The notes beneath the pieces were generated by a model. That model saw only the letters and a list, made by a program, of their open reading frames with translations. It searched no databases and was not told where the DNA came from. The position numbers and the translations under genes are program-made. Below, piece after piece: positions 1,241-42,960 of a DNA stretch of 64,000 nucleotides (positions are counted from its first letter, which is position 1; each line of letters opens with the position of its first letter). Source of the stretch: the human T2T-CHM13v2.0 reference genome, Homo sapiens; assembly GCA_009914755.4 (NCBI GenBank), contig CP068257.2:42144001-42208000 (forward strand). The letters run 5' to 3'.

Positions 1241-1373
1241 ATGGTTTCGCGCGTGCAGCTCCCGCCTGAGATCCAGCTGGCTCAGCGCCTGGCGGGGAAT
1301 GAGCAGGTGACCCGGGACCGGGCGGTGAGGAAGCTCCGGAAATACATCGTCGCCAGGACTCAGCGGGCCGCAG
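1241..1373 (+). CDS. RRP1: RRP1 exon 1 (coding part), MVSRVQLPPEIQLAQRLAGNEQVTRDRAVRKLRKYIVARTQRAA-
   Basis: ATG in Kozak context gtcATGg; ORF reads the RRP1/NOP52 N-terminus; donor cag|GTtggcg; ends in phase 1. Confidence 0.9.
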
Positions 1374-1893
1374 GTTGGCGGGGGTGTGGGCGGCTGGCGT
1401 CTCGGGGGCCGGCTGGGCTGGTGCGGGTGTGGGCGGCGGCGGCCGGAGCTGGGGGCCCTCCGAGCCCTGTGGAACCTCCACGTGGCCGGGCCGGGCAGGC
1501 GGGGTCCACTGGCCTGTTCCCGCTGTTACCGGCCCACGGCCCCCGCCGCCGCTTTCCCTCGTGGTGCGGTGACTCTGGTCCCTCTGCGAGAACGCTCCTC
1601 CCCAGCCCCGTAACCCCTTTCCTAGCTCAGGCGTCCCCTCCCTCCAGTAGACCATGTACTCCTGCTGCCCTGCTGTTTGGGCACCCAGTATTTTTCCCTC
1701 ATGGCAGCATTTCCCACTGTTTGCAGTTTTCTGTTTTGCGTTAATTATTGGATTGTTTTCCGATTTCCACTCGAGAGTACCTCTCTGAGGGCCGAGAATC
1801 TACTTCTTGTTCATGGTACCAGGTGGTTCTCCGAGCGTGGTCCCCCATCAGCAGTAGCATCCCCTGGACATTTGTTAGAAATACACGTTCTAT

Positions 1894-2030
1894 GCCGGGC
1901 GCAGTGGCCCAAGCCTGTAATCCCAGCTACTTGGCACGTCGATGTGGGAGGATCACAAAGGCCCAGGAGTCCAGCCTGGGCAACATAGCAAGACTCCATT
2001 TCCATCGCAAAAGAAAAGAAAGAAATGCAA
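1894..2030 (+). mobile_element. Alu left-monomer fragment
   Basis: gccgggcgcagtggcccaagcctgtaatcccagctacttgg... then A-rich tail. Confidence 0.8.
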
Positions 2031-2202
2031 GTTCTAGGATCCCAGCCCTACTAAATCAGGACTGGCATCTGCTTTATGAAGCTGTTCAAGTGCTTCTGCT
2101 CCCCACACTCAGCCTGAGAACCACTGCTGCAGGAACAGGTTGCCAGACACATAGGACTTCAGTGAATGTCAACTGAGTAATGTTTTAAATTAAAATTTTT
2201 TG

Positions 2203-2501
<299 letters not shown>

Positions 2502-2960
2502 TCAGTAATTTCTGTTTCTCTCGTAGTCTGAATGCCTGAGTTCACTTTCTTCTTTTAGTATTTGAGATATATTACAGGAGAGTGCAGAAGCCCTCAGTAT
2601 AATGCTGGATGAATTATCACCAACAGATTAACCTTGTGGCCACTGTCCAGCTTAGGAAACCGTCAAGGTTCGCAATTTTGAATTTCCAAAATGGAGTATG
2701 GTGCCTGATACCTTGTAGATCTCAGTCGGTTTTACTGTGTGCGTGAAGTAGCAGTTACCTGGAGTAGCCGCATAGCCACAGGCGCGGCAGGTTCTGGGTT
2801 AGAAGGATTGTTTGAAGGGGAGGGCCAGATTCTGCCCCCCAGTTGCCTTTACCGTAAGTGGGACTTTGGTCTCATTCAGGCAGTCACGTTTCTGTGGCTT
2901 CCTTTCTGGCACTCGAAGGTGTGGGATTCATTTGGTCCAACCGTTGCTGTTTTGATGCAG

Positions 2961-3043
2961 GTGGTTTTACGCACGACGAGCTGCTGAAGGTGTGGAAAGG
3001 ACTGTTTTATTGCATGTGGATGCAGGACAAGCCACTCCTCCAG
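2961..3043 (+). CDS. RRP1: RRP1 exon 2 -GGFTHDELLKVWKGLFYCMWMQDKPLLQ
   Basis: acceptor ttttgatgcag|GT, donor cag|GTGAGTg; completes Gly codon from exon 1 and keeps frame. Confidence 0.9.
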
Positions 3044-3118
3044 GTGAGTGGGGGGAGCAGCAGAGCAGGTACAGAAGCAGCGGGGGAGGATGGATGGGCA
3101 TCTGGTCAACCCAGTTTT

Positions 3119-3460
<342 letters not shown>

Positions 3461-4039
3461 TAGCCTTGACGCTTGGTTCGGCACGGCTGGTGGGCCTGGG
3501 CCTTTGTTAGGTGAGTCTTACACTTGCTGAGGTGTTGATGTGATTGACTGAGCCGTGCACTGCAGCAGCACTGGCATGGGTGAAAACTGGGTTTTGTGTT
3601 TGTCCTGGGTTGCAAACAAGTGCTGAAATAGTGGAAACCACGGGGCGGAATTCAAGTCTCCTGAGACAAGGACGTCTCCTGCTAGCCTTTTCCAAACATT
3701 GTTTCTCAAATTGTGAATTTTGTGCTCTCCTTCAAAATCTCCTGGGTGGTGAGGGTACTTAGTTAAGTTCAGGTTCCTGGGCCATATTCCATGCCCACTG
3801 AATTATCAAGGGGAGGCTGTGAAATGTCCCTTAGCAAGTATTCTGGGCGATGGCTGGCACGGTGATGTAGGCAGATAGCCAGTGATCTATGGGGTCTCGC
3901 AGCCCTCTTCCTCCTGATGGTTAGGGGGCTGTGAGTCCCAAGGCTCCCTTCCGCTCTCCCACGTCCCTCTTTAACCGTGACTCTGTGGCTTAGGGCACAG
4001 CCTCTGTCAAGAGGGCAGTGCCTGCTGTGGTTGTGTGAG

Positions 4040-4120
4040 AGGCTGTTGACCCCAGCTGTCTAGAGGGGCCTCCCGTGGTTGTGTGAGAGCCTGTTGACCC
4101 TGGCTGTAGAGGGGTCTTTT
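4040..4120. repeat. tandem duplication of ~40-bp unit (tggttgtgtgagaggctgttgaccc..gctgt.tagagggg) x2; (GAGT/GGGT)n microsatellite at 4182-4212 close by
   Basis: seen directly in sequence. Confidence 0.7.
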
Positions 4121-4282
4121 GGAGCAGGGGTGAAACCTCCAGTGCACTGAGCTGAGACCCCCTGGAAGCCGACTCTCTGTGATGAGTGAGTGAGTGAGTG
4201 GGTGAGTGGGTGGTTGCGTGTGTGTCATTGTGAGAGCCTGGTGCTTCAGGGGCTGAGGGCGTTTTTGTTGTTTCCTACACAG

Positions 4283-4340
4283 GAAGAATTAGGAAGGACT
4301 ATTTCCCAGCTCGTTCATGCTTTTCAGACCACGGAGGCGC
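4283..4340 (+). CDS. RRP1: RRP1 exon 3 EELGRTISQLVHAFQTTEA-
   Basis: acceptor tttcctacacag|GAAG, donor gcgc|GTGAGTat; ends in phase 1. Confidence 0.9.
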
Positions 4341-4929
4341 GTGAGTATGCTCTGCTGTAGTTGGGTGCATTTGTAGATGTCAGAACCTCTGAGCATCAGA
4401 GCCACCAGACCCAGGAGGTTTGTGTTCTCAAATCCAGAGTAAGGAATGCCTAAGGGCAAGAGAGCGCCAGCTGGTGTCTGTGGGTGCTTAGCATGTGTGC
4501 AGTGCTGGTGTAAGTATTCAACATGGATTAGCTCATTTACCCAAAACCCTCATTTCGAGCCTAATGGGCTAATATCTTACACTTTAAAAATAAAGTGAAA
4601 AGCCAGGATAATGTCACCAAGAGATTGGACTGAATTCCGCCTGATGGTCCTGAGGTTCCTGCAGTTGATTTTTCTGACTCCTCTGTTCTCTGGTGACCGG
4701 AGTTGAGAAGTTCTTACCCTGCCTGTCTGTAGGACTCACTTGAGGAGCCTCTAAAAATCCTCATGTCCAGATCCTGGTCCAGCAAGATCCAGTTCTGGGG
4801 GTAGGGCCTGGGCATCAGCATTTTTTATCTATAGCTATGTAAAGAACGGGTTCCTCCATGTTCTCACCTCCCTCCCCAGAGTGGCTTCGTGCTCCTCAGT
4901 GGTTCTCTTCTGGCTTATTCCTTCTCCAG

Positions 4930-5015
4930 AGCACCTGTTCCTTCAGGCCTTCTGGCAGACCATGAATCGCGAGTGGACGGGCATTGACAGGCTGCGCCTG
5001 GATAAATTCTACATG
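4930..5015 (+). CDS. RRP1: RRP1 exon 4 -QHLFLQAFWQTMNREWTGIDRLRLDKFYM
   Basis: acceptor ttccttctccag|AGCAC, donor acatg|GTGAGg. Confidence 0.9.
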
Positions 5016-6799
5016 GTGAGGCAGCCACCAGGGTGCCGGCGGGCGGGGGCAGCGCGGGTCTCAGTGCCTGGCCAAGCGAGACAGGCGGCACCTGGGCAGG
5101 GAGGCAACCTGAGGCAGTGCGACCCTGAAGCCAGGGGTGGGAGGTGGAGCCGAGACTCTGGGCGGTCCCTGACCAGGGCTCTGCAGCTTTGTCCAGTCTC
5201 TGAGGGTCATTGAATGGGCAAGGAATTCGACCCTTAAAACACCACACAAACTTTTGGTTCAGAGAAGGAAAGTGACGATTGCTCTCCTGGTGAGAGTCGA
5301 TGGTGACACCGTTGTTACCTTGTCAAAGAGGCAGAGTGAGTCTGGAGGCGCAGCAGAGGAGCTGCGGTCACGCCCTAGCATGAGCCCTGGAGTGCTTAGC
5401 CTGCGAGGCTGGGATGGATGGTCACAGTGTGGGACTTCCTTTCCCTCCTCCCTCATTGTATCCCCGTTCAGGGCACTGATTTGCCCTGAGAATACAGGGG
5501 AACACTGGGGTTTAGAGGTGCAGCGTGTTGCTGCCCGGACCTGCTTCTCTCCTTCCCTCCTTCCCTCTTGTTGAACCATGAGGTCTCGTTACTAAGGTGG
5601 TGGTCATTGTAACCTTAGAGCAGGCCTGAGATACAGGGACATTGTCACTGTGTAGGAGTCGGTCACCCAATGGGGACACTGAAAGGGGCCATGTCCGGGT
5701 CTCACTGAGGACAGATGTTGATCTGCCACTCTGGCTTCAGTGTCCAGCTCAGATTCGGGCCAGGATTGTGCAGACAGCATATATACCAGTGATTCTAGAA
5801 GTGGAGACCAGGGCGGGAAAGGCCTGGAGCTCAAGAAGGAAGGAGGCTCCAGGGCAGGCCAGGGGCCCGGCCATGCACTCAGACAGAGTGCAGACTCTTA
5901 GGGACAATGGGGCTCTGCAGGGAGGCCACCCTACTGTTTTGCTGAGATGTGGCTGCTGGGTCCCTGGATGGATGCGTTCTGCTGCTTTCCATGGCTCGTT
6001 TCTGGGTGCCCCTTGTGTGGCTGAGTCCAGCAGCACAGCCTTGCGTCAGGGCTAGCCTCGGTGGCACCGCAGGGTGTTGTGGGGGATAGGCCTCCTGTGT
6101 CTGCAAGAACAGTGTCCGGGCTGCTGGGCTGTGCTCTGTCATCGGGGCTCCTGGGGGTCCGCGTGTCCTCTGCTGCTACTGACTGCAGCTCAGACCCCAC
6201 TCTGGGCGTGTGGGCATGCTGGGTCAGTAGCCTAAAGGGGGGACAACTGCAGAAGGGTGTTGAGCCCCATGGAGGGAAATGGCATTGTTGATTCACGGGT
6301 GAGGCTTGGCGGGAGGGCCTTCGCTGTGTAGTGGACCGCAGAGGAAGTGAGCTACATTCTGCCCGTTGCGGGGGGTTTGGTGAGGACCAGCCGTGTTTCA
6401 GACCTGGTTTTGCGGAGGGCTCCACCGCCCGTGGGGGTAGCCGTGCCTCTTTCCTGGTTCTCCCTTATGAATCGGACTGTTCCGTTTCAGCCCCGGTTTA
6501 TGGACTGGAGTCGTAGGACTGTCCCCTATTACCCCCGACCCCCCATGCACCTGCTTCCTGCCAGCTGGGGCCTTGGAGCCGGGGATAGGGCATGTTCTCA
6601 GCCCAGGGTTCTGAGGGCTTGGTGGTGTGTCCTCCAGCGTCTGTCTGTCAGCAGCTCTGGGGGCCGGCTGTGTGCTGGGGCCGGCAGAGGTCACCACGGC
6701 CATGACTTTATCCTGCAGCGGATGGTGGTACATGGGGATGGGTGGTCTGGCGAAGTAGGGCTGGGCTTCTGCTAACGCCAATCTCCTTCTGTGTCAAAG

Positions 6800-6861
6800 C
6801 TCATGCGGATGGTCCTGAACGAGTCCTTGAAGGTTCTGAAGATGCAAGGCTGGGAAGAAAG
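6800..6861 (+). CDS. RRP1: RRP1 exon 5 LMRMVLNESLKVLKMQGWEE(R)
   Basis: acceptor ctgtgtcaaag|CTC, donor gaaag|GTGGGTg; ends in phase 2. Confidence 0.9.
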
Positions 6862-7166
6862 GTGGGTGCGCGGCGGGCCTGCTCTGGGGGGACGCTGTTC
6901 TCGGGGACCGCAGTCGTGTTTGTCATTTGATTCTTTGCCATAAGGAGATGTCAGCCTTTATATTAACGCATGCCCCCAATCGTGCTTAGAGAGAAGATAG
7001 TTTTTAAAGTAAAAATCAGTTTGTGTGTTTGTGGAAATGATGCCATTTATCCTCAGGCTTGGAGGCCAGTTCTCACTGGGAGTCAGAAGGGAGTTTTTTA
7101 ATGAAAGGGTGTCCAGCCGAGGAGCTTCTTATAAAAACACGGCATGTTCCGCTTCATTAGCAATGC

Positions 7167-7428
7167 TTTTTGTTTTTTTGAAATAGGTGTCACTGTTGCC
7201 TAGGCTGGAGTGCAGTGGCGTGATCTTGGCTCAACTACAGCCTTGACCTCCCGGGCTCAAGTGATCCTCCTGCCTCAGCCGCCCAACTGGCTGGGACTGC
7301 AGATGTGCACCACCAGGCCCACGTAATTTTTGTATCTTTTTTTGGTAGAGACGAGTTCTGTCCTGTTGCCCAGGCTTGTCTCAAACTCTTGGGCTCAAAC
7401 AATCTGCCTGCCTAGGCCTCCCAAGTTG
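7167..7428 (-). mobile_element. Alu SINE (intron 5), truncated at its 5' end
   Basis: poly-T then gaaataggtgtcactgttgcctaggctggagtgcagtggcgtgatc... Confidence 0.85.
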
Positions 7429-7471
7429 TAAGCAATGTTAATTGCTCCTAATTCTAAAAATATGTAAATTG

Positions 7472-7740
7472 GCTGGGCGCGGTGGCTCACATCTGTAATC
7501 CCAGCACTTTGGGAGGCCGAGGCGGGCAGATCACAAGGTCAAGAGATCGAGACCATCCTGGCCACCATGGTGAAACCGTGTCTCTACTAAAAGTACAAAA
7601 ATTAGATAAATGCATAGAAAAGAATTAGCAGGCTGGTTATGGTGGGTTAAGGGGATCTCTTGAGCCCAGGAGTTTGAGGCTGCAGTGATCTGTGACTGAG
7701 CCACTGCACTCTAGCCTAGGTGATAGAGTGAGATTCTGGT
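7472..7740 (+). mobile_element. Alu SINE (intron 5) with a ~45-bp internal insertion; forms an inverted pair with the 7167-7428 Alu
   Basis: ggctgggcgcggtggctcacatctgtaatcccagcactttgggaggccgaggcggg... Confidence 0.85.
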
Positions 7741-9032
7741 TTTTTGTTTTTTTTTTTTAAAGAATCAGCAGGAATTGAACTGTGGCTGCTGAGTTTCTCT
7801 AGGTTTGAGTTGCATGGGTGATTTTGCATTTAGGGCAGCGGTGCCTCTGGTTTGGAGGGATTTTCATTCTTCTATTCCCTGGCAGGACTCTGATGCCAGG
7901 AGTCTCATTCATTCTGGGCCTTAGCATTGTGGATTACCCCATAGGGGTCTCATGGCTTAAGCTGAATTAAATGTTAAAGGGATGATTTTACTTGTGTTAA
8001 CTTTTTTTGGCATATTATTACAAGAGTACTTTTCTCCCTGTAACTGAGAATTCAGCACAGGAATCATGTGGAAGACCTCGGTGCCTTCCCCCAATGCCTG
8101 CTGCGGTCCCAGTGCTGACAGTGGGGTCCGCTCTTCCCGCCCTCTTGGATCTCCTGCAGGCATAACCAGGCTGTCATTAATATCCACGCCATTGCCACTG
8201 GCCTGGGAAGTCGGTCCCTTGCATCTGTGTGTCTTCCTCTTGGTCTCAGCACCTGTTCTTGCCTCTGTCTCGTTTTTCCTGAGCCTTAGAGAGCATCACT
8301 TTTCCTTTCCATCACGAGTGATTCTCCAGCCTTGCTACGGAGCTTCCTAAGGATCACACAGTTTACAGATCTGAGTTAGGCAGCTGCGTTATTAAGCACC
8401 CCAGGAGGTCCAGATGCATGTAGGTGCTACACATTATTCTCTGGGGCTGTCTAGTCTTCAGATCCAGGGCCTGTGATGCCATCAAACCCGCCTGCCAGGG
8501 AGAGCTCTGGTGGACGTCACAGTTGGAATGCGTCGTGCGGCAGGGCCCAGGAAGCCAGCAGGTGGCTCATGGTCCTCGGCCCCTTTCTGGGCCTCCACCT
8601 TCCTTTCTCTGCCTGTGCTGTCCTGACGTGTCTTCCCCAGCGGTACCCAGTGGAGGCAGTGGAGAGGAACACCAGGCAGGGCGTCTCGTCTCAGCCAAGC
8701 CTTTCTCTCTGCTAGCAATCTTGAGGACAGAGGGAAGGCCTGTCTGAATGTTTACACGTGCTGCATTTTGTAGCTGACATGCACACTCAGGCCATACGTT
8801 CTGGTGGTGGTGCTGGTCACATAACTCCCTAACTGCAAGACTGCCTTGCGCTGGAGGAGACCTAGGATCGTTGATATCATCTGCGTGGACTTTAAGGCTG
8901 GCATGTTTGCAGACAGTGGCGCCTGCCCGCACTTAGGTTCCCATCAGAGCGTGTAACCATGGGAGAGTGGGGGGCACGGCTGTCTTGGGGCTCATCGAGG
9001 CTGCCTGTCATGTTTGCTTTTTCTTTCCTCAG

Positions 9033-9162
9033 ACAGATCGAGGAGCTGCTAGAGCTGCTGATGACTGAGATCCTGCACCCCAGCAGCCAGGCCCCCAACG
9101 GTGTGAAGAGCCACTTCATCGAGATCTTCCTGGAGGAGCTGACCAAAGTGGGCGCCGAGGAG
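9033..9162 (+). CDS. RRP1: RRP1 exon 6 (R)QIEELLELLMTEILHPSSQAPNGVKSHFIEIFLEELTKVGAEE
   Basis: acceptor ttctttcctcag|ACAG, donor gaggag|GTGAGGct. Confidence 0.9.
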
Positions 9163-9241
9163 GTGAGGCTGGGCTCCGACGGGGCGGTGGAGCTGGGCGT
9201 TTGTGGAGGAGGAACTGAGCTCCCGCTGGCTTTCCCCGTAG

Positions 9242-9306
9242 CTTACGGCAGACCAGAACCTGAAGTTCATCGACCCCTTCTGCAGAATTGCTGCCCGGAC
9301 CAAGGA
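9242..9306 (+). CDS. RRP1: RRP1 exon 7 LTADQNLKFIDPFCRIAARTK(D)
   Basis: acceptor tttccccgtag|CTT, donor aagga|GTAAGTgg. Confidence 0.9.
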
Positions 9307-9517
9307 GTAAGTGGTGGGTGGCCTGATCGGGCCCGACTCCTTCACTGAGTTCTTCCATGGGGCTGCTGTTGTGGGGGTGCTGCTCCCTCGAGGGATGAAT
9401 CTGTCTCAGAGTGGCCGCTGGCCGTGTGGGTGGGGAGAGGTTGCAGGGGAGTCGGCGGCTTCCGCTTGGGAATCCAGCATAACGGGCCTGCTCACCGGCC
9501 TCTGCTCTGCCCCTCAG

Positions 9518-9711
9518 TTCCTTGGTTTTGAACAACATCACTCGAGGCATCTTTGAGACGATTGTGGAGCAGGCCCCGCTTGCCATTGAAGACCTCCTGA
9601 ATGAACTGGACACACAGGATGAGGAGGTGGCGTCGGACAGTGATGAGTCCTCTGAGGGTGGTGAGCGTGGAGACGCGCTGTCCCAGAAGAGGTCTGAGAA
9701 GCCGCCCGCAG
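9518..9711 (+). CDS. RRP1: RRP1 exon 8 (D)SLVLNNITRGIFETIVEQAPLAIEDLLNELDTQDEEVASDSDESSEGGERGDALSQKRSEKPPA(G); acidic/serine-rich
   Basis: acceptor ctgcccctcag|TTCC, donor cccgcag|GTGGGGgt. Confidence 0.9.
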
Positions 9712-10991
9712 GTGGGGGTCACACTGCGCCTGGCTTCTCCTCGGGGCCTGTCCTGGGCTGAGCCAGTGCGATCTCCTGCTGGGTTGCTCCTGCCACCTCC
9801 TACCTGGTCCCCTTGTCTCTGCCCCTCTCCACAGTCCATCCTCAGCATAGAAGCCAGAGTGACTTCTGTGGGCACCAAGCACACGTCGTTTCCCCTCATC
9901 CCCCAGCCTCTGATGTGCTCCACGCCCTCTCCGGACCCCTGGGCTCCTCGGTCTAACGCATGCCTCTGGCTCAGTTGGCCCCCTAGACTCGTTCCTGCCT
10001 TGGTGCCGAGTCTCTCCGTCCCTCCCACCGTCTCTCCCCCCATCACTCTCTGGGGCTGGACTCTTTCAGCCTCCTGGCCTCTCCCAGCCCCCAACGCAGT
10101 CCTCCCCATAGCGTCACTCTGTGGCACGGGATGTGAATCACTTGCTCCTCGTGTTCCTCGTTCCTGGCCCGTCTCCCCAGAGGACAGCAAGCTCTGTCCA
10201 TATTGACCATGACTGGGTTCAGGCCTGAGACCTCAGGGCACCTGACTGCTCTGTGTGCAGTGTGTGTGAGGGGCAGGTGTACTCACCTGCCCCTCACTGC
10301 CTGCCAGAGGCCTCTGTGGGCAGCCGTGGGGTCCAGCCTGGCCCATTTTTTGTTTTGATGCTGCACTCATTGTCCGAGCCTGCTGGGTGGTCTGAGCTCT
10401 AAGTGTGGCATCCTGGTGCTGTGGAGGGCATGTCTTTGACCACGCTCAGGACCCCAGTATGCCCCAAATCAGTGCTGTGGCCACTGTTCCCCTTGGCTTC
10501 CTAATCAGAAGACCCCCTCCCCACCGCCCCCAGCACTTGGCCCGGCCACCCTGTATGCTTCTCCCTGGTCTCTGCCTTGCCCTTCTCTCTCAGTAGCTGA
10601 GGTGCCTGGCAGGTCCGCTAGTGCCTGCTGCTGGCCCCCTGCTGCCAGCTACAGAGCAGACCCTTGTCACATGCTGCCCCACAGCTGCCTGTTGCCCAAA
10701 AACCTTTCTTCTGCAGACAGTGCCATCAAAGCCCCAAATGCCCAGCCTAGCTCGAGCACCCAGCCGAAACATCAGCTCCCACAGCTTCTGGACCAGGCCA
10801 CCCTGAGGCTCCTCACTTCCAGAACTTTTGACATGGCCTTTGTTGCCCAAGATGCCAGCTTGTAGTCAGCCACTCAGGGCTGTGTAGGCACCTGTGCCCT
10901 GGGACATCTTTTTTTCCTTTGCAGGCCTGAGGTGGCACCTCTCATCCTGTCCATACGAGATTAGAGGTCACATGGCACCTAGTATCTGCCT

Positions 10992-11110
10992 TGAGCTGTG
11001 GGCTTTCCCGCCTGTGCCCATGTTCTGACCAGGGTGCAGGGTGGGCTGTCCGTTCCCGGGTGTTTCCCGCCTGTGCCCGTGCTCCGACCAGGGTGCACGG
11101 AGCGGGCTCT
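10992..11110. repeat. tandem duplication, 2 copies of ~58-bp unit (tttcccgcctgtgcccrtg.tc.gaccagggtgca.gg...) in intron 8, ~70 bp upstream of the exon 9 acceptor
   Basis: seen directly in sequence. Confidence 0.75.
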
Positions 11111-11180
11111 CCATTCCTGGATGTTTGGGGCCAGCACACGTTGGGCACAGGTAGGGTTCACGGGGTCCCTTTTGTTCCAG

Positions 11181-11260
11181 GCTCCATCTGCAGGGCTGAA
11201 CCTGAGGCTGGTGAGGAGCAGGCAGGTGACGACAGGGACAGTGGCGGCCCCGTTCTCCAG
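11181..11260 (+). CDS. RRP1: RRP1 exon 9 (G)SICRAEPEAGEEQAGDDRDSGGPVLQ
   Basis: acceptor ttttgttccag|GCTCC, donor ctccag|GTGGGTtc. Confidence 0.9.
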
Positions 11261-11839
11261 GTGGGTTCCCTGGGCTCATGGCTGTGCCCTCAGCCTTTGC
11301 CCCTCTGTGCTACCGCTTGCTCTGGAAGAGGAGGGGGGCGTTAGGAGGGAGGATGGCAGCTGTTGGCATGGAGAGTTACCCGGACAGGGGTTAGCTTTGA
11401 AGGAGGGATGGGTGCCCCAACCCTGCCCGCCTGTAGACGAGTGGGATCATTGAGAGTGGGGCTGGGGCCTGGGAAAGTGGGGCTGGGGCCTGGGAGGGTG
11501 GGCTCAGGCAGAACTGCATTATCCAGGGCTGGCCTCACCTCACGCTGTCCTCTTGCCTCACACATGGGCAGCCCCCCAGATTTCCTGCGGCCCCCTCGTT
11601 GGGGTGCTGGTGGGGAATGAGATGGCATGTGCCAAGCGGCTGGCCTGTGGGTCCCAGCGAGGAATCCACTCAGCCAGTGGGGTCTGACTTCAGGCAAATT
11701 GGAAACTTAAATGTTTTAAGTTTTAAATATGATTATCTGCAGACTGAATAAAATGTGGCTATCTTGGGTTAAAATTGATCAATTTAACCTATGTTGTTCG
11801 TGCTTGTCTGTGTGGTTCCTAGAGTGGTAAAGCTGCAGG

Positions 11840-11950
11840 CAGGCTACCGGCGGGCGTGTGCCCTGCAGTGTGCCCCGCAGTGTGCATCTTCCAGAGTGTG
11901 CCCCGCAGTGCGTGCCCCGCAGTGCGCCCGCAGCTTGTGTGGTGCCCGCT
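11840..11950. repeat. short minisatellite of ~12-bp unit gtgccccgcagt(g/c) (intron 9)
   Basis: seen directly in sequence, ~7 degenerate copies. Confidence 0.6.
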
Positions 11951-12127
11951 GTGCTGTAGAGTGGGTGGAGCTGCAGGACCCTCAGTGAGGGTGGGCTGTG
12001 TTCCTGTGAGCCGGGTGGAGAACCTGCAAGTGGGACCAAGTGCTATCTGGGTCTCAGGGGTTCCACGTTCTCGGAGCACGCAGAGCGTGGCTGACCTTGC
12101 CTCTGTGACGTCTCTCTTTTGAAACAG

Positions 12128-12225
12128 TTTGACTACGAGGCAGTTGCTAACAGACTGTTTGAAATGGCCAGCCGCCAGAGCACCCCTTCTCAGAACAGAA
12201 AGCGTCTCTACAAAGTGATCCGGAA
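12128..12225 (+). CDS. RRP1: RRP1 exon 10 FDYEAVANRLFEMASRQSTPSQNRKRLYKVIR(K)
   Basis: acceptor ttttgaaacag|TTTG, donor cggaa|GTGAGTgtg. Confidence 0.9.
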
Positions 12226-12472
12226 GTGAGTGTGTGAGGGCGCTGCGTCCTCCCTGCTCCCCTTGGAGTTGCCCTTTCTTGCTCAGATCTGGGTGCCTTT
12301 GCCTTGTCCTGGGCCCTTCCGCAGCCCCCGGGGTGATCCCCGCTAGGACCCTGAGACCGTCCCCAGCCCCTGGGGTTCCCCTGGCTAGGAACCTGCAGCC
12401 GCTCTAGCTGGAGCTTCCTCCTCCTGCGGAAGCCGCAGCTGTGGTAAGTGGGTATCTGTCTTACTCTTTCAG

Positions 12473-12492
12473 GCTGCAGGACCTGGCAGGAG
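12473..12492 (+). CDS. RRP1: RRP1 exon 11, 20-nt micro-exon (K)LQDLAG(G)
   Basis: acceptor ttactctttcag|GCTGCAGG, donor gcaggag|GTGAGGat; needed to keep the frame between exons 10 and 12. Confidence 0.85.
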
Positions 12493-13077
12493 GTGAGGAT
12501 CGGCCGGGCACTGACAGTGGCACCACCTTGGAGGTGGAGCTCCATCCTCGTGGGAGTGGTTTGGTTCTAGGGGTCTCATAGCACGTGGAGTCTCTTTGCA
12601 GAGAGGCCTGGTGGTGTTTCTGAGGGACAGGGAGGCAGGGCGCAGGGTTCCACAGCTCTCGTTTTTGTGGTTTTTGCTGAGTGGTTCTCAGACTTGAGTG
12701 TCCATTGGAGTGCCCCAGAGCCTGAGAGATGGGGTGCTGGCCTCAGGGGCTCCCAAGCACTGACCGCGGTGCTGCTGCTGGTCTGTTGGGCAGCACACGT
12801 CTGTTCTTGGCAGCGCGTGGCGGATGGAACTGGCATAGGTTATCGGAAGGACGGTTTCCTAGTGGGCGTCGATGGTTAGAGACGTAGGCGTTTCCCCTGG
12901 TGTTTCCTTATGAAAAGTTTCAGACCTGCAACTCAGTTGGAAGGATTTTATAGTGGATGTCTGCGTGTCCCTGCCGGCCTCCAGCATCAGCACTTCCTGT
13001 CCTTGCGTGAAGCTCCTCTATCCCAGCATCACACCCCTGCATCCGCCAGCGGGCGCGTCATCAGCTGTAGTCCAGGG

Positions 13078-13300
13078 TTTGGTTTTTTTATTTTTTATTT
13101 TTTGAGGCGGTGTCTCGCTCTGTTGCCCAGGATGGCGTGCAGTGGTGTGATGCAGCTCACTGCAGCCTCGATCTCCTGGTCTCAAGCGATCCTCCCGCCT
13201 CAGCCTCCCAGTCGCTGGGACCACAGGCGCACGCCACCACGCCGGCTAATTGTTGTATTTTTTGTAGAGACAGGGTTTCGCTGTGTTGCCCGGCTGGTCG
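13078..13300 (-). mobile_element. Alu SINE, partial (intron 11)
   Basis: ttttattttttgaggcggtgtctcgctctgttgcccaggatggcgtgcagtgg... Confidence 0.8.
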
Positions 13301-13884
13301 TCTGGGGTTTTCGGGACAGCGCGCGTCAGTGAGGTGCGTGAGGATCGTGTGCATCTGGCAGGTTTTGATGCAGAAAGTTGCCTTGGGCCGCCAGCATGAG
13401 CATTGTAGGCTGTAGACTTTGGTGTACAGGTTGAGCGTCTCTAATCTGAAACCCCAAATCCAAAATGCCACCAAGTCCAAAGCTGAGTGCTGACAGGAAG
13501 CTCCAGGGAAATGCTCGTCGCAGTGTTTTCTGTTTGGGGTTTTCAGGTGAGGGCTGTTGAACTGGTGAATATGATGCAGACGTTCCAAAACAACCTGACA
13601 TTCAAAGCACTGCTGGTCCCAGGCATTTGGGGTCGTGGACGCTCTATGCTGTACCTGTGTCCTGGATGCTCCAGGAACTGGCTTTTCCAGATGGGCTTGG
13701 GTCTCAGCTGGTTCGTTTCAGCTGTGGCGGGTACTGAACACGCTGCTCCTGGGCATTAGAACAGGGCGCTTTCTCACACACATTGTCAGGAGGTGGTGCT
13801 GGCTGGGGCCTGCTGGAAGCAGCGAGCCTCAAACCATAAGTCCCCAGCCCCCGAGAGCCCCCTGACTTCTGCCCTGGTTCTCAG

Positions 13885-13998
13885 GCATTTTCCCTGAAGA
13901 TGAGATCCCAGAGAAGGCCTGCAGGCGCCTGCTTGAAGGGAGGCGGCAGAAGAAGACGAAGAAGCAGAAGCGTCTGCTCAGGTTGCAGCAGGAGAGAG
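13885..13998 (+). CDS. RRP1: RRP1 exon 12 (G)IFPEDEIPEKACRRLLEGRRQKKTKKQKRLLRLQQER(G); basic, NLS-like
   Basis: acceptor ctggttctcag|GCATT, donor gagagag|GTAGGAct. Confidence 0.9.
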
Positions 13999-15122
13999 GT
14001 AGGACTAGGGGGTGTGTTAGTCATGGAGCCGGCGTCCTCACCTGCTTGCTTCTCCCCTGGATGGGGGTCACCTGCAGTGTCTCCCCCTGAAGCATGAGTG
14101 CCGAGTCCCCCATCCTGGGTGCCTGCTATCCACGCATCCCGGAAATGCCCTGTCCTCGGCATCCCTCCTGTAGGCCTCTCCCTGCCTCCCCCACCCACCT
14201 TCCTTGTCTGCAGCTCCCCCGAGCTGTGTGCGCTGCCCTCCCTCCCGGTCTGGAGACATCCTCCTGGCTGGGCTGCCTCCTTCCGTGCCTCCGTCTTAGA
14301 TCCAAGCCCCGTCCGCTCCTCTCCCGCACCCTCCAGAGATTCCTGAGTCTCTCCACGTCTTCCTTCCCCTTCTTCCCTCCACTTCTTCCCTCCACTTCTG
14401 TCCTTGATTTCTGGGGCTGCCTTCCGTGTTGGGCCTCTGGCCACACGAGTGTGGTTGGCATGTGATGCCCTCACCAGGGGCAACCCTGGGTCCGCGGCAG
14501 ACCACTCAGGGCCTGGAGCTGCCTACCTGCAGTGGAGGGGGTTGAGCACAGTGCCGGGCAGGGCAGGGGGCCCATGGCAAGAATGGGGTGCAGAGGAGGC
14601 ACATGGTGGCTTTGCCCCACACTGGGAAGCCTTCCCTGTTACTCTCTCCATGCTAAACTGGCCCCAGGGCCTAGGGATTCACCCCTTCCCTTGCCCAGAG
14701 CTCCGTGCCATTGAAGCCGTCCATCTCATTTCCCATGAGGCAGTGGCCTCCTCTTTGTAGCCGGCCCTTGGCTGTGTGAACCCTGTCGGCCCTGGCGTTC
14801 AGGACCTGGCACTGCCTGGCGTCCTGTTCTTCCACCTCCCCTTCTGCCTTGAGCCCAGTCCTGCCTACTCCTCTGTGCCTTTGCTCCTGGGTCTCATGAC
14901 CCTGTCCTCACGCTGGTCCTTCTGAGGTCAGCCCTTGCTGAGGTCCTGAGCCGTGTGGATGGAGCTTGGCGCCCACACTGGACACGGGATGCGTCTGGCT
15001 GGCTGTTGTGGCCGTGTTGTCCTCCCAGGTCTGTGGTGCTGGCATCCTCAGCCTGAGTTGGAGTAAGTGGAAAGAGCCCGTGTTGGCATTCTCTGGCTCA
15101 TGGGGTCTTGCTGTTTTGTCAG

Positions 15123-15385
15123 GGAAAGGTGAGAAGGAGCCCCCGAGCCCGGGCATGGAGAGGAAGAGGAGCAGGAGGAGGGGTGTAGGGGCCGACCCCG
15201 AGGCGCGGGCAGAGGCTGGTGAGCAGCCAGGCACAGCTGAGCGGGCCCTGCTCCGAGATCAGCCCAGGGGCCGTGGCCAGAGAGGGGCTCGCCAGAGAAG
15301 GAGGACACCTCGGCCCCTGACCAGTGCCCGAGCAAAGGCGGCCAATGTCCAGGAGCCGGAGAAGAAGAAGAAACGCAGGGAGTGA
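15123..15385 (+). CDS. RRP1: RRP1 exon 13 (last coding) (G)KGEKEPPSPGMERKRSRRRGVGADPEARAEAGEQPGTAERALLRDQPRGRGQRGARQRRRTPRPLTSARAKAANVQEPEKKKKRRE*
   Basis: acceptor ctgttttgtcag|GGAAAGG; in-frame TGA at 15383-15385; 13 exons sum to 1386 nt = 461 aa + stop. Confidence 0.9.
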
Positions 15386-32699: not shown

Positions 32700-33060
32700 T
32701 TTTGAAAAGAAGTGACCAACACATTTTATGAGATAATGTAATCTCAACATCAAAAAAATGAGGACATTACAAGAAAGGATAATTACTGGCCAATCTTAAT
32801 TATTAGAAAAATACTTTTCAAAACAGCAAAGAAAATATTAGCAAAATTAATCAAGTAATGGATTTTGTCCCAGGAACTCAGGTTTAGTAAAACATTACAA
32901 AAGGTACCCAGATAATGCACCAGTCTCACCAGTTAAAGGAGAAAAGACATGTGCCTGTATCCGCTGGTTCATAGCTGATATTCAATAAAATTCAACAAAG
33001 CAATGACCTCAACAGGAGAAAGATTTTCTTCCAAAAATCTACAGAAAATGCTTGATGAAA
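32700..33060 (+). mobile_element. old L1 (L1M-like) ORF2 reverse-transcriptase fragment
   Basis: degenerate translation ..GF.PG.Q..FNIRK....HINR.KEK.H...S.DAEKAFDKIQ.. matches L1 ORF2 RT motifs; stops and frameshifts present. Confidence 0.55.
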
Positions 33061-33096
33061 AAAAAAAAAAAAAGAATTTTTTTTTTAAGTGATGGG

Positions 33097-34617
33097 GTCC
33101 TCTCCCTCTCCCTCTCCCTCTCCCTCTCCCTCTCCCTCTCCCTCTCCCTCTCCACGGTCTCCCTCTCTCTCCACGGTCTCCGTCTGATGCTGAGCCCAGG
33201 CTGGACTGTACTGCCGCCATCTCGGCTCACTGCAACCTCCCTGCCTGATTCTCCTGCCTCAGCCTGCCGAGTGCCTGGGATTGCAGGCGCGCGCCGCCAC
33301 GCCTGACTGGTTTTCGTATTTTTTGGTGGAGACAGGGTTTCGCCGTGTTGGCCGGGCTGGTCTCCAGCTCCTGACCGCAAGTGATCTGCCTGCCTCGGCC
33401 TCCGGAGGTGCCGGGATTGCAGACGGAGTCTCGCTCACTCAGTGCTCAATGTTGCCCAGGCTGGAGTGCAGTGGCGTGATCTCGGCTCGCTACAACCTCC
33501 ACCTCCCAGCCACCTGCCTTGGCCTTCCAAAGTGCTGAGATTGTAGCCTCTGCCTGGCCGCCACCCTGTCTGGGAAGTGAGGAGCGTCTCTGCCTGGCCG
33601 TCCATCGTCTGGGATGTGAGGAGCCCCTCTGCCCGGCCGCCCAGTCTGGGAAGTGAGGAGCGCCTCTTCCCGGCCGCCATCCCGTCTAGGAAGTGAGAAG
33701 TGTCTCTGCCCGGCCGCCCATCGTCTGGGATGTGGGGAGCGCCTCTGCCCCACCGCCCTGTCTGGGATGTGGGGAGCGCCTCTGCCCGGCTGCGACCCCG
33801 TCTGGGAACTGAAGAGTGTCTCTGCCCGACTGCCACCCCGTCTGGGAGGTGAGGAGTGTCTATGCCCGGCCGCCCCGTCTGAGAAGTGAGGAGCCCCTCC
33901 GCCTGGCAGCTGCCCCGTCTGGGAAGTGAGGAGCCCCTCCGCCCGGCAGCCGCCCCGTCCAGGAGGTGGGGGGCAGCCCCCGCCCGGCCAGCCGCCCCAT
34001 ACGGGAGGTGGGGGGTGCCTCTGCCTGGCCGCCCCGTCTGGGAAGTGAGGAGCCCCTCTGCCCGACCACCACCCCGTCTGGGAGGTGTACCCAACAGCTC
34101 ATTGAGAAGGGGCCATGATGACGATGGCGGTTTTGTCGAAAAGAAAAGGGGGAAATATGGGGAAAAGAAAGAGAAATCAGATTGTTACTGTGTCTGTGTA
34201 GAAAGAAGTAGACATAGGAGACTCCATTTTGTTCTGTACTAAGAAAAATTATTCTGCCTTGGGATGCTGTTAATCTATGACCTTACCCCCAACCCCGTGC
34301 TCTCTGAAACATGTGCTGTGTCCACTCAGGGTTAAATGGATTAAGGGCGGTGCAAGATGTGCTTTGTTAAACAGATGCTTGAAGGCAGCATGCTCCTTAA
34401 GAGTCATCACCACTCCCTAATCTCAAGTACCCAGGGACACAAACACTGCGGAAGGCCGCAGGGTCCTCTGCCTAGGAAAACCAGAGACCTCTGTTCACAT
34501 GTTTATCTGCTGACCTTCCCTCCACTATTGTCCTATGACCCTGCCAAATCCCCGTCTCCGAGAAACACCCAAGAATGATCAATAAATACTAAAAAAAAAT
34601 AAAAAAATAAAAAAAAG
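33097..34617 (+). mobile_element. SVA retrotransposon, full structure: (CCCTCT)n 33100-33175; antisense Alu-like 33180-33540; VNTR of 37-49-bp units 33545-34085; SINE-R (HERV-K-derived) 34085-34590; poly(A) 34591-34617
   Basis: all four canonical SVA modules in canonical order; SINE-R closely matches the consensus I recall (..ggggaaaagaaagagaaatcagattgttactgtgtctgtgtagaaagaagtagacataggagactccattttgttctgtactaag..); possible 9-bp TSD aagTgatgg / aagGatgg. Confidence 0.9.
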
Positions 34618-34702
34618 AAAATGAAGGATGGAGCCATGAGCTGAGGAATGTAGGCAGCCTCTAGAATATAGAAAAAGCAATGAAACTGATTCTGTCCTAT
34701 AG

Positions 34703-34846
34703 CCTCCAGAAGGAACATAACCCTATTGACACCCTGATTTCAGCCCAGTAGTTGTGATTTTGGATTTCTCACCTCCAGAAGGAACATAACCCTATTGACA
34801 CCCTGATTTCAGCCCAGTAGTTGTGATTTTGGATTTCTCACCTCCA
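34703..34846. repeat. tandem duplication, 2 x 72 bp (cctccagaaggaacataaccctattgacaccctgatttcagcccagtagttgtgattttggatttctca) inside an unclassified interspersed-repeat-like segment that ends in ..ccagaactataagataataaattcatgttgttttaagc + A-run
   Basis: two identical copies seen directly in sequence. Confidence 0.75.
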
Positions 34847-34884
34847 GAACTATAAGATAATAAATTCATGTTGTTTTAAGCTAA

Positions 34885-35325
<441 letters not shown>

Positions 35326-42660: not shown

Positions 42661-42960
42661 GGTGAGGTACGGTGCCTCATGCCTGTAATCCCAGCACTTT
42701 GGGAGGCCGAGATGGAAGGACTGCTTGAGACCAAGAGGTTGTGACCAGCCTGGACAACAGAGGAGACCCTGTCTCTGCTAAAAATAAAAAATTAGCTGGG
42801 TGTGGTGGTGCATGCCTGCAGTTCCAGCTACTTAGGAGGCTGAGGTGGGAGGATCGCTTGAGCCCAGGAATTTGAGGCTGCAGTGAGTTATGACCGCACC
42901 ACTGCACTCCAGCCTGGGCGACAGAGCGAGACCCTGTCTCAAAAAACAAACACAAAACAA
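42661..42960 (+). mobile_element. Alu SINE
   Basis: ggtgaggtacggtgcctcatgcctgtaatcccagcactttgggaggccgagatggaaggactgcttgag... Confidence 0.9.

What the first reader, a model, noticed from the sequence alone, without database searches (positions are those of the whole stretch)
33097..34617. Full-length hominid-specific SVA retrotransposon ~18 kb downstream of RRP1
All four canonical modules are present in order: (CCCTCT)n, antisense Alu-like, a ~540-bp VNTR, and SINE-R with poly(A). SVAs are the youngest retrotransposon class in hominids. They are often polymorphic in VNTR length, carry CpG-rich sequence that is a methylation target, and can act as enhancers or promoters for nearby genes. The element is inserted in an old L1M ORF2 fragment. 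A 9-bp TSD-like repeat aagTgatgg/aagGatgg flanks it.
Basis: partly seen in the sequence, partly recalled or inferred. Interest (0 to 1): 0.5.

Follow-up and report, generated by a model that had tools for sequence, protein, structure and literature searches.

The report
Ordinary old SVA_B retrotransposon near RRP1
This is a complete but old copy (subfamily SVA_B, roughly 10-15 million years) of the ape-specific SVA jumping element, sitting 17.7 kb past the end of the human RRP1 gene; it is one of about 1,900 full-length copies in the reference genome and shows nothing unusual.

Summary
Window 33097-34617 (+) holds a full-length SVA retrotransposon. All modules are present in order: hexamer repeat, two antisense Alu fragments, a 542-bp VNTR of 14 units, SINE-R with its own AATAAA, and an A-tail.

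- **Family evidence.** 44 independent copies, recovered from human contamination in public assemblies, match it only between these termini.
- **Target-site duplication (TSD).** The 9-bp repeat is AAGTGATGG versus AAG-GATGG. Its chance frequency is about 0.006.
- **Neighbouring gene.** RRP1 coding exons lie at 1241-15385 (+), so the "~18 kb downstream" statement holds.
The VNTR unit array A-B-C-A-B'-C-A-A-C-A-E-(G/H)-C-T equals the published SVA_B scheme. SINE-R is derived relative to SVA_A and ancestral relative to SVA_C-F.
- **Consequences of the subfamily.** The element is old and presumably fixed, and is expected in human, chimpanzee and gorilla. It belongs to none of the young, polymorphic, VNTR-variable subfamilies, and it lacks the long F/K units in which allelic VNTR variation was reported.
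- **The L1 claim is only half right.** L1 ORF2-like sequence lies on the 5' side only.

Verdict: an already known kind of feature, a routine repeat annotation, of low interest. No function can be inferred from the sequence.

The parts
33087..33095 (+). 5' copy of the target-site duplication, AAGTGATGG. It is preceded by T10, giving the target TT|AAG, which is an L1-endonuclease-like but non-consensus site.
   Evidence: null frequency 0.0056
33096..33097 (+). Two extra G residues between the TSD and the hexamer. They are probably untemplated, cap-derived Gs typical of full-length L1-mediated insertions (inference).
   Evidence: no counterpart in the 3' TSD copy, which continues with AGCC
33098..33171 (+). 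(CCCTCT)n hexamer module, about 12 units
   Evidence: 33099-33171, period 6, 11.7 copies, score 112
33172..33545 (+). Alu-like module: two antisense Alu fragments (33194-33425 and 33450-33509) plus linker
   Evidence: blastn to more than 40 Alus in the window, antisense to sense Alus; alignment to 9 other SVA copies, 88-95% identity
33546..34087 (+). VNTR of 14 repeat units. Lengths are 40, 39, 37, 40, 39, 37, 40, 40, 37, 40, 41, 41, 37 plus the terminal unit. In the published code this reads A B C A B' C A A C A E (G/H) C T.
   Evidence: scheme compared with PMC4432496 Additional file 2
34088..34590 (+). SINE-R module (HERV-K LTR-derived) with the SVA-specific internal-deletion junction CTGCCTAGGAAAACCAGAGACCT at about 34470-34492
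   Evidence: 90-98% identity to 44 independent copies; colinear with an undeleted LTR-like sequence in L014
34581..34586 (+). Polyadenylation signal AATAAA of the SINE-R. Its use means there is no 3' transduction.
34591..34623 (+). A-rich tail. It is clean to 34616, followed by the degenerate GAAAATG.
34624..34631 (+). 3' copy of the target-site duplication, AAGGATGG (one T deleted)
32864..32998 (+). Context: degenerate L1 ORF2 reverse-transcriptase fragment (aa ~555-611 of human ORF2p) on the 5' side only
   Evidence: PDB 9hdo/8sxt/8c8j, E 2e-4 to 8e-4
1241..15385 (+). Context: RRP1 coding exons, from start codon to stop codon

Best explanation
Window 33097-34617 is a full-length SVA_B element. 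SVA is a non-autonomous composite retrotransposon.

**How it got here (inferred from family knowledge and the hallmarks present).** An SVA_B source copy was transcribed. The RNA was polyadenylated at the SINE-R's own AATAAA. The L1 machinery acting in trans then reverse-transcribed it into a nick at TT|AAGTGATGG (target-primed reverse transcription). This duplicated 9 bp of target and left a poly(A) tail and two extra 5' Gs.

**When (inferred).** The insertion took place in the RRP1-distal intergenic region, in the common ancestor of the African great apes and humans, roughly 10-15 Myr ago. The copy has since decayed by about 2% and has lost several CpGs.

**What it is now.** It is most likely a fixed, immobile genomic fossil. 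Its GC- and CpG-rich Alu-like and VNTR part is the kind of sequence that KRAB zinc-finger proteins and KAP1 and DNA methylation target in this family. No copy-specific function is shown.
For: - **Modules.** All are present in canonical order, and the repeat statistics are far above chance.
- **Discrete mobile unit.** 44 independent copies share the SVA-specific SINE-R junction. Their similarity to the window begins at 33099-33125 and ends at 34600-34625, never in the flanks.
- **Retrotransposition hallmarks.** The element's own AATAAA is followed by an A-tail. A 9-bp TSD abuts both ends, with chance frequency 0.0056.
- **SVA_B by the VNTR.**
  - The unit array A B C A B' C A A C A E (G/H) C T equals the SVA_B rows of PMC4432496 Additional file 2, for example chr6:122,050,219 and chr6:42,653,816. 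It differs from the SVA_A rows (no B', E, G or H) and from the SVA_D-F rows (F, K, G, C').
  - The same parsing reproduced the published D-F array in L012, L013, L022 and L023.
- **SVA_B by SINE-R.**
  - It lacks the SVA_A-specific CCGAAGAGACAGCGAC. It carries derived GGGTCC, CTTCCCTCC, TATTGTCC and GCCAAATCC relative to the SVA_A consensus.
  - It keeps the ancestral state at about 20 positions that are changed in C-F-type copies.
- **SVA_B by the Alu-like region.** It groups with the old-type copies L031 and L041.
- **Age.** 11 of 497 substitutions (2.2%) separate it from a small old-type consensus, similar to the other old copies at 0.7-3.3%. About 13 private changes lie in the 400-bp Alu-like part, about half of them CpG transitions.
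- **Literature.** SVA_B is dated to ~11.56 Myr and is reported absent from orangutan. No polymorphic A-C insertions were found.
Against: - RepeatMasker/Dfam could not be run, so the subfamily label rests on published schemes. One of these was read from an OCR-noisy supplement, and the sample of copies is small.
- A few SINE-R states are SVA_A-like: GAAAAG, CACATG derived from CACGTG, and the AATAAATACT end. An A/B-intermediate call is therefore possible.
- The TSD is imperfect (one deletion) and short.
- An extra similarity between the flanks leaves the exact TSD extent uncertain. It pairs A16GAA (33058-33076) with A8GAA (34601-34619).
- The orthologous sites in other primates were not examined.
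- Nothing here tests regulatory activity.
Confidence: 0.93

Rival explanations
1. It is an SVA_A, or an A/B intermediate, rather than SVA_B. In that case it would be older and possibly shared with orangutan.
For: Several SINE-R states match the SVA_A consensus: GAAAAG, a CACGTG-derived CACATG, TCTCCGAG and the AATAAATACT end. PMC10681720 notes that the RepeatMasker SVA_A consensus may not equal the original definition and that the A/B order is disputed.
Against: - The VNTR contains B', E and G/H units in the exact SVA_B array. The 10 published SVA_A arrays have none of these.
- The SVA_A-specific 16-nt SINE-R segment is absent.
- At least 5 derived states shared with B-F copies are present.
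Confidence: 0.1
2. It is a young SVA of subfamily D, E or F. It could then be human-specific, polymorphic in presence or VNTR length, and still retrotransposition-competent.
For: The only support is that it is full length with intact termini.
Against: - About 20 diagnostic SINE-R positions and 7 or more Alu-like positions differ from the D-F-type copies L012, L013, L022, L023, L032 and others.
- The VNTR lacks F, K and C' units.
- It has about 2% private divergence and CpG decay.
Confidence: 0.02
3. The copy has been co-opted as a cis-regulatory element for RRP1 or neighbouring genes, for example as an enhancer, an alternative promoter, or a boundary nucleated by KZFP/KAP1.
For: - It is GC- and CpG-rich. 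Alu-like plus VNTR have GC 67.8% and o/e 0.58, and 200-bp windows from 33120 meet CpG-island criteria.
- It is in the same orientation as RRP1 and 17.7 kb from its stop codon.
- Family-level literature on ZNF91/KAP1 silencing exists.
Against: - There is no copy-specific evidence of any kind.
- No paper in the library links RRP1 with an SVA.
- This is one of 5,107 reference copies, most of which have no demonstrated function.
Confidence: 0.08
4. The insertion was accompanied by a deletion of target DNA (SVA insertion-mediated deletion). This would explain why L1 ORF2 sequence is present only on the 5' side.
For: ORF2-like sequence (aa ~555-611) stops before the element, and none follows it within 5 kb. 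The TSD is imperfect.
Against: A TSD-like repeat abuts both ends at p~0.006, which is the signature of ordinary target-primed insertion without deletion. The ORF2 similarity ends more than 60 bp before the insertion point, at an A16/T10 tract, which suggests an older junction.
Confidence: 0.03

Closest known systems
SVA_B subfamily of SVA (SINE-R/VNTR/Alu) composite non-LTR retrotransposons
   Same: - The module order and termini match.
- The VNTR repeat-unit array A B C A B' C A A C A E (G/H) C T matches the published SVA_B scheme.
- The SINE-R and Alu-like states are of the old type.
- The length of 1,521 bp falls within the published SVA_B range of about 1.37-1.68 kb.
   Different: There are only private substitutions, at about 2%. 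A few states are shared with SVA_A: GAAAAG, the CACGTG-derived site, and the AATAAATACT 3' end.
SVA_D/E/F (young, partly human-specific, active SVAs)
   Same: The four-module architecture is the same. They share the 5' VNTR units A B C A ... B' C and the same SINE-R deletion junction.
   Different: The young copies carry F, K, G and C' long units in the VNTR. They also have about 20 diagnostic SINE-R changes (for example GACAATGG, GATCCTGTTGATCTGTGACC and a TT insertion) and Alu-like changes. This copy has none of them.
HERV-K (HML-2) LTR5, the source of SINE-R
   Same: The SINE-R of the window is colinear with the LTR-like sequence in L014. Window 33932-34484 matches at 92.5% and 34482-34592 at 83.8%.
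   Different: SINE-R lacks about 365 bp that are present between these two blocks in L014. It also ends at the LTR's AATAAA. Calling the L014 segment LTR5_Hs rests on my own recollection of that consensus.
LAVA, PVA and FVA (gibbon VNTR composites) and SVA2
   Same: They share the hexamer, Alu-like and VNTR 5' parts.
   Different: Their 3' modules are L1ME/AluSz, PTGR2 or FRAM, not SINE-R (PMC4432496). This element has a SINE-R.

Membership tests
SVA retrotransposon | 5' (CCCTCT)n hexamer repeat | tested here: met
   TRF finds 33099-33171, 11.7 copies, 90% matches
SVA retrotransposon | Alu-like region made of antisense Alu fragments | tested here: met
   Element positions 98-329 and 354-413 hit more than 40 window Alus. 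They are antisense to the sense Alu at 34907-35200.
SVA retrotransposon | GC-rich VNTR of ~35-50-bp units | tested here: met
   542 bp in 14 units of 37-41 bp, GC 72%
SVA retrotransposon | 3' SINE-R (HERV-K-derived, with the characteristic internal deletion), ending in AATAAA and poly(A) | tested here: met
   The deletion-junction 23-mer retrieved 44 copies that are 90-98% identical over SINE-R. The region is colinear with undeleted LTR-like sequence in L014. AATAAA is at 34581 and the tail starts at 34591.
SVA retrotransposon | Interspersed multi-copy element with fixed termini and unrelated flanks | tested here: met
   Matches to all 44 loci are confined to 33099-34625. No flank similarity exists apart from unrelated Alus.
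SVA retrotransposon | L1-type insertion hallmarks (TSD, A/T-rich endonuclease target) | tested here: met
   The 9-bp TSD has one indel and a null frequency of 0.0056. The target is TT|AAG after a T10 run, which is a non-consensus site.
SVA retrotransposon | Restricted to hominoids or hominids (orthologous site empty in Old World monkeys) | not testable with these tools
SVA_B subfamily | VNTR array A B C A B' C A A C A followed by E/I/G/H units and C-T at the 3' end | tested here: met
   The unit lengths and sequences match the SVA_B sheet of PMC4432496 Additional file 2 and its E- and H-type unit consensus.
SVA_B subfamily | SINE-R derived relative to SVA_A but ancestral relative to SVA_C-F | tested here: met
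   It lacks the SVA_A 16-nt segment and has at least 5 derived states. It shares the old haplotype GCAATAA.ATATAA--CGAA.C with L014, L030, L031, L039 and L041. Caveats: the consensus text is OCR-noisy, and no SVA_B consensus file was available.
SVA_B subfamily | Best RepeatMasker/Dfam match is SVA_B | not testable with these tools
SVA_E/F (human-specific, active) | Young SINE-R haplotype and F/K/G/C' VNTR arrays | tested here: not met
LAVA/PVA/FVA | Non-SINE-R 3' module | tested here: not met
   The 3' module is a SINE-R.

The most novel reading that the evidence does not exclude
This fixed SVA_B copy might have been co-opted as a hominine-specific regulatory element for RRP1 or its neighbours on chromosome 21q22.3, either as a KZFP/KAP1-bound silencer or boundary or as an enhancer. 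Alternatively, its VNTR might vary among people with an effect on nearby gene expression.
Probability: 0.05. Interest if true: 0.3.

Novelty: already known. Interest (0 to 1): 0.07.

Why it matters
It matters little. SVA elements are a well-described family. The human reference holds 5,107 copies, of which 1,927 are full length (PMC10681720), and this copy would be annotated by any RepeatMasker run.

The useful outcome is a correction of emphasis. This is an old SVA_B, presumably fixed and shared with African apes. It is therefore a poor candidate for insertion polymorphism, ongoing mobility or VNTR instability. If anything, it is of interest only as a possible lineage-specific regulatory sequence near RRP1, and sequence alone cannot show that.

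Tried and rejected
- **Viral-contig scan.** A scan for the SINE-R junction found nothing.
- **Rfam.** At gathering thresholds it finds nothing in the element. The only hit is an SRP/Alu-like match at 42795-42942.
- **Literature text searches.** A search for an SVA_A/B-type SINE-R 18-mer gave 0 papers. A search for RRP1 plus 'SVA retrotransposon' also gave 0 papers.
- **Identity of the 3' flank (34617-34905).** Blastn against the window and the 44 loci gave only self-hits and two weak hits. A tblastn with a recalled L1 ORF2p gave nothing there. Its repeat class stays unassigned. From memory it resembles 3' ends of old L1M elements, but this is unverified.
- **A longer TSD.** I considered A-run+GAA...AAGTGATGG because A16GAA and A8GAA align. 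I rejected it as the primary reading. The middle differs (T10 versus AATG), and the implied nick site would not be endonuclease-like.
- **Insertion-mediated deletion.** I considered this and judged it unlikely because of the TSD.
- **Young subfamily (D-F).** Rejected on SINE-R, Alu-like and VNTR evidence.
- **Recalled sequences.** The recalled RRP1 and L1 ORF2p protein sequences served only as probes. The RRP1 hits are 100% identical over the matched exon cores. RRP1 and the 5'-flank L1 ORF2 fragment were then named independently through the PDB.

Full report
**Observation.** Window 33097-34617 reads as the first-stage reader described it.
- Tandem Repeats Finder reports a (CCTCTC)n array at 33099-33171: 11.7 copies, score 112.
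- It also reports a 542-bp array of ~40-bp units at 33546-34087, with score 492-549.
- GC content rises from about 0.3 in the flanks to 0.62-0.75 over the 5' two-thirds of the element. It falls to about 0.45 in the last 500 bp.
- Blastn of the element against the whole window gives only self-hits for the VNTR and the 3' module.
- Element positions 98-329 and 354-413 hit more than 40 Alus. For the sense Alu at 34907-35200 both hits are on the minus strand (35169->34929 and 35173->35116). The Alu-like module is therefore two antisense Alu fragments.
- The 3' module ends with AATAAA (34581-34586) followed by an A-rich tail from 34591.

**Is it a member of a mobile family?** No repeat library is available here, so I used the SVA-specific SINE-R deletion junction present in the window (CTGCCTAGGAAAACCAGAGACCT) as an exact probe.
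- It found nothing in viral contigs.
- It found 41 contigs in metagenome assemblies and 3 short contigs in bacterial genome assemblies. All of these are evidently human contamination.
- Blastn of the window element plus 400-bp flanks against these 44 loci gives 90-98% identity over SINE-R.
- Nine loci carry the 5' modules as well (L011, L012, L013, L020, L022, L031, L032, L039, L041). In several of them a single alignment runs from the hexamer to the SINE-R.
- In every case the similarity begins at window 33099-33125 and ends at 34600-34625. The flanks never match, apart from unrelated Alus.
- This is direct evidence for a discrete, interspersed, multi-copy element with exactly the proposed termini.

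**Insertion hallmarks.**
- The 9-mer AAGTGATGG (33087-33095) lies just 5' of the element.
- It recurs as AAGGATGG (34624-34631) seven bases after the clean part of the tail.
- In 20,000 composition-matched shuffles, a 9-mer with at most one edit in that position occurred in 0.56%.
- The 5' copy is preceded by T10. The inferred bottom-strand nick is therefore 5'-...ACTT|AAAA-3', which is L1-endonuclease-like but not consensus (inference).
- Two Gs (33096-33097) lie between the TSD and the hexamer and have no counterpart at the 3' copy. They are probably cap-derived untemplated Gs, consistent with a full-length copy (inference).
- The element uses its own poly(A) signal, so there is no 3' transduction, and there is no 5' transduction.
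- A second similarity between the flanks (A16GAA at 33058-33076 versus A8GAA at 34601-34619) leaves the exact TSD extent slightly uncertain.

**Subfamily from the VNTR.**
- Splitting the VNTR gives 14 units of 40, 39, 37, 40, 39, 37, 40, 40, 37, 40, 41, 41, 37 bp plus the terminal unit.
- In the repeat-unit code of Lupan et al. 2015 (PMC4432496) this reads A B C A B' C A A C A E (G/H) C T.
- The paper states three relevant points:
  - E, G, H and I units first appear in SVA_B.
  - B and C copies end in C-T.
- Its Additional file 2 lists SVA_B elements as A B C A B' C A A C A E ... (G/H/A) C T, which is the same array.
- SVA_A rows lack B', E, G and H. SVA_D-F rows carry F, K, G and C'.
- The unit sequences at 33936-34017 match the E- and H/G-type consensus units.
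- As a control, the same parsing reproduced the published D-F array in L012, L013, L022 and L023.

**Subfamily from SINE-R and the Alu-like region.**
- In the alignment of SINE-R from 42 sequences, 32 informative columns define an 'old' and a 'young' haplotype, with intermediates.
- The window carries the old one, together with L014, L030, L031, L039 and L041.
- I compared it with the SVA_A SINE-R consensus printed in Figure S3 of the same paper, which is OCR-noisy.
  - The window lacks the 16-nt CCGAAGAGACAGCGAC segment.
  - It has the derived states GGGTCC, CTTCCCTCC, TATTGTCC, GCCAAATCC and GTCCACTC that all B-F-type copies share.
  - It retains a few SVA_A-like states: GAAAAG, CACATG from CACGTG, and the AATAAATACT end.
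- The Alu-like module groups with the old copies L031 and L041 at 7 or more positions.
- All three modules therefore place the element after SVA_A and before SVA_C, which is SVA_B.

**Age.**
- The SINE-R differs from a small old-type consensus at 11 of 497 sites (2.2%). This is within the 0.7-3.3% range of the other old copies.
- The Alu-like module has about 13 private changes in about 400 bp, roughly half of them CpG transitions.
- This fits the published SVA_B age of ~11.6 Myr. It also fits the statement that SVA_B is absent from orangutan.
- It does not fit a recent insertion.
- Chu et al. 2023 found no polymorphic insertions for subfamilies A-C, and count 5,107 reference SVAs, of which 1,927 are full length (PMC10681720).
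- Allelic VNTR variation was reported only in the part composed of long F/K units, which this copy lacks.

**Context.**
- A recalled human RRP1 sequence, used as a tblastn probe, hits 12 exon segments at 1241-15382 (+). The exon cores match at 100% identity.
- The concatenated window translations match PDB chain 8fkp_NO, 'Ribosomal RNA processing protein 1 homolog A', at E=1.5e-173.
- The SVA starts 17,712 bp after the stop codon and lies on the same strand.
- The 5' flank translates, with frameshifts and stops, to a fragment matching human L1 ORF2p residues ~555-611 in the reverse-transcriptase domain (E=2e-4 to 8e-4).
- No ORF2 similarity follows the element for 5 kb, and the 3' flank remained unclassified.
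- 'Inserted in an L1M ORF2 fragment' is therefore only half supported. The element sits just beyond the recognisable ORF2 remnant, next to an A16/T10 tract.

**Mechanism and function.**
- Shown: the structure, the family membership, the termini, a TSD-like repeat and the old subfamily.
- Inferred from established knowledge of the family: mobilisation in trans by L1 through target-primed reverse transcription, and insertion in the human-African ape ancestor.
- Also inferred: present immobility and fixation, and susceptibility of the GC/CpG-rich part to KZFP/KAP1 and DNA methylation. That part has GC 67.8% and CpG o/e 0.58, and 200-bp windows starting at 33120-33320 and 33580-33680 meet CpG-island criteria.
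- Nothing in the sequence shows a copy-specific regulatory role. No paper in the library connects RRP1 with an SVA.

**Verdict.** The finding is correct and is an ordinary, already known kind of feature. The refinement is the SVA_B assignment, which lowers rather than raises the interest.

Noticed in passing
window 34703-34849: A perfect 69-bp tandem duplication (2.1 copies, 100% identity, TRF score 294) lies about 90 bp 3' of the SVA. Zero divergence suggests a recent event or an assembly or allele-specific feature.
   Followed up: no
window 33058-33086: An A16-GAA-T10 tract lies just 5' of the TSD. It sits at the end of the recognisable L1 ORF2 remnant and is probably an old junction between two repeats. 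Its A16GAA part also resembles the end of the SVA tail (A8GAA).
   Followed up: partly
L042 (NRRR01000079.1, Chromatium weissei DSM 5161), L043 (BMTN01000097.1, Streptomyces kurssanovii JCM 4388), L044 (BNBB01000110.1, Streptosporangium violaceochromogenes JCM 3281): Three 525-578-bp contigs of bacterial species-representative assemblies consist mostly or entirely of human SVA SINE-R at 92-95% identity to the window. This is human contamination in public bacterial genomes. 41 metagenome contigs show the same.
   Followed up: partly
L014:1-1250: In this contig a young-type SVA VNTR and SINE-R 5' half run, without the SINE-R deletion, into what I recognise from memory as a complete HERV-K LTR5_Hs. 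It is either an assembler chimera through shared sequence or an SVA/LTR5 recombinant. It usefully displays the ~365 bp that SINE-R lacks.
   Followed up: partly
L039: A mosaic copy: the Alu-like region is of the young (D-F) type but the SINE-R is of the old type. This indicates an assembly chimera or gene conversion.
   Followed up: no
window 42795-42942 (+): The only Rfam gathering-level hit in the window is Metazoa_SRP (77.5 bits). Model positions 1-299 are matched within 148 bases, so it is probably a 7SL/Alu-monomer-type repeat rather than an SRP RNA gene.
   Followed up: no
window, whole: Alu density is very high, with more than 40 Alu-like hits in 64 kb. Several degenerate L1 ORF2 fragments lie at 39.9-40.3 kb, 45.2-49.7 kb (+) and 51.5-56.5 kb (-).
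   Followed up: no
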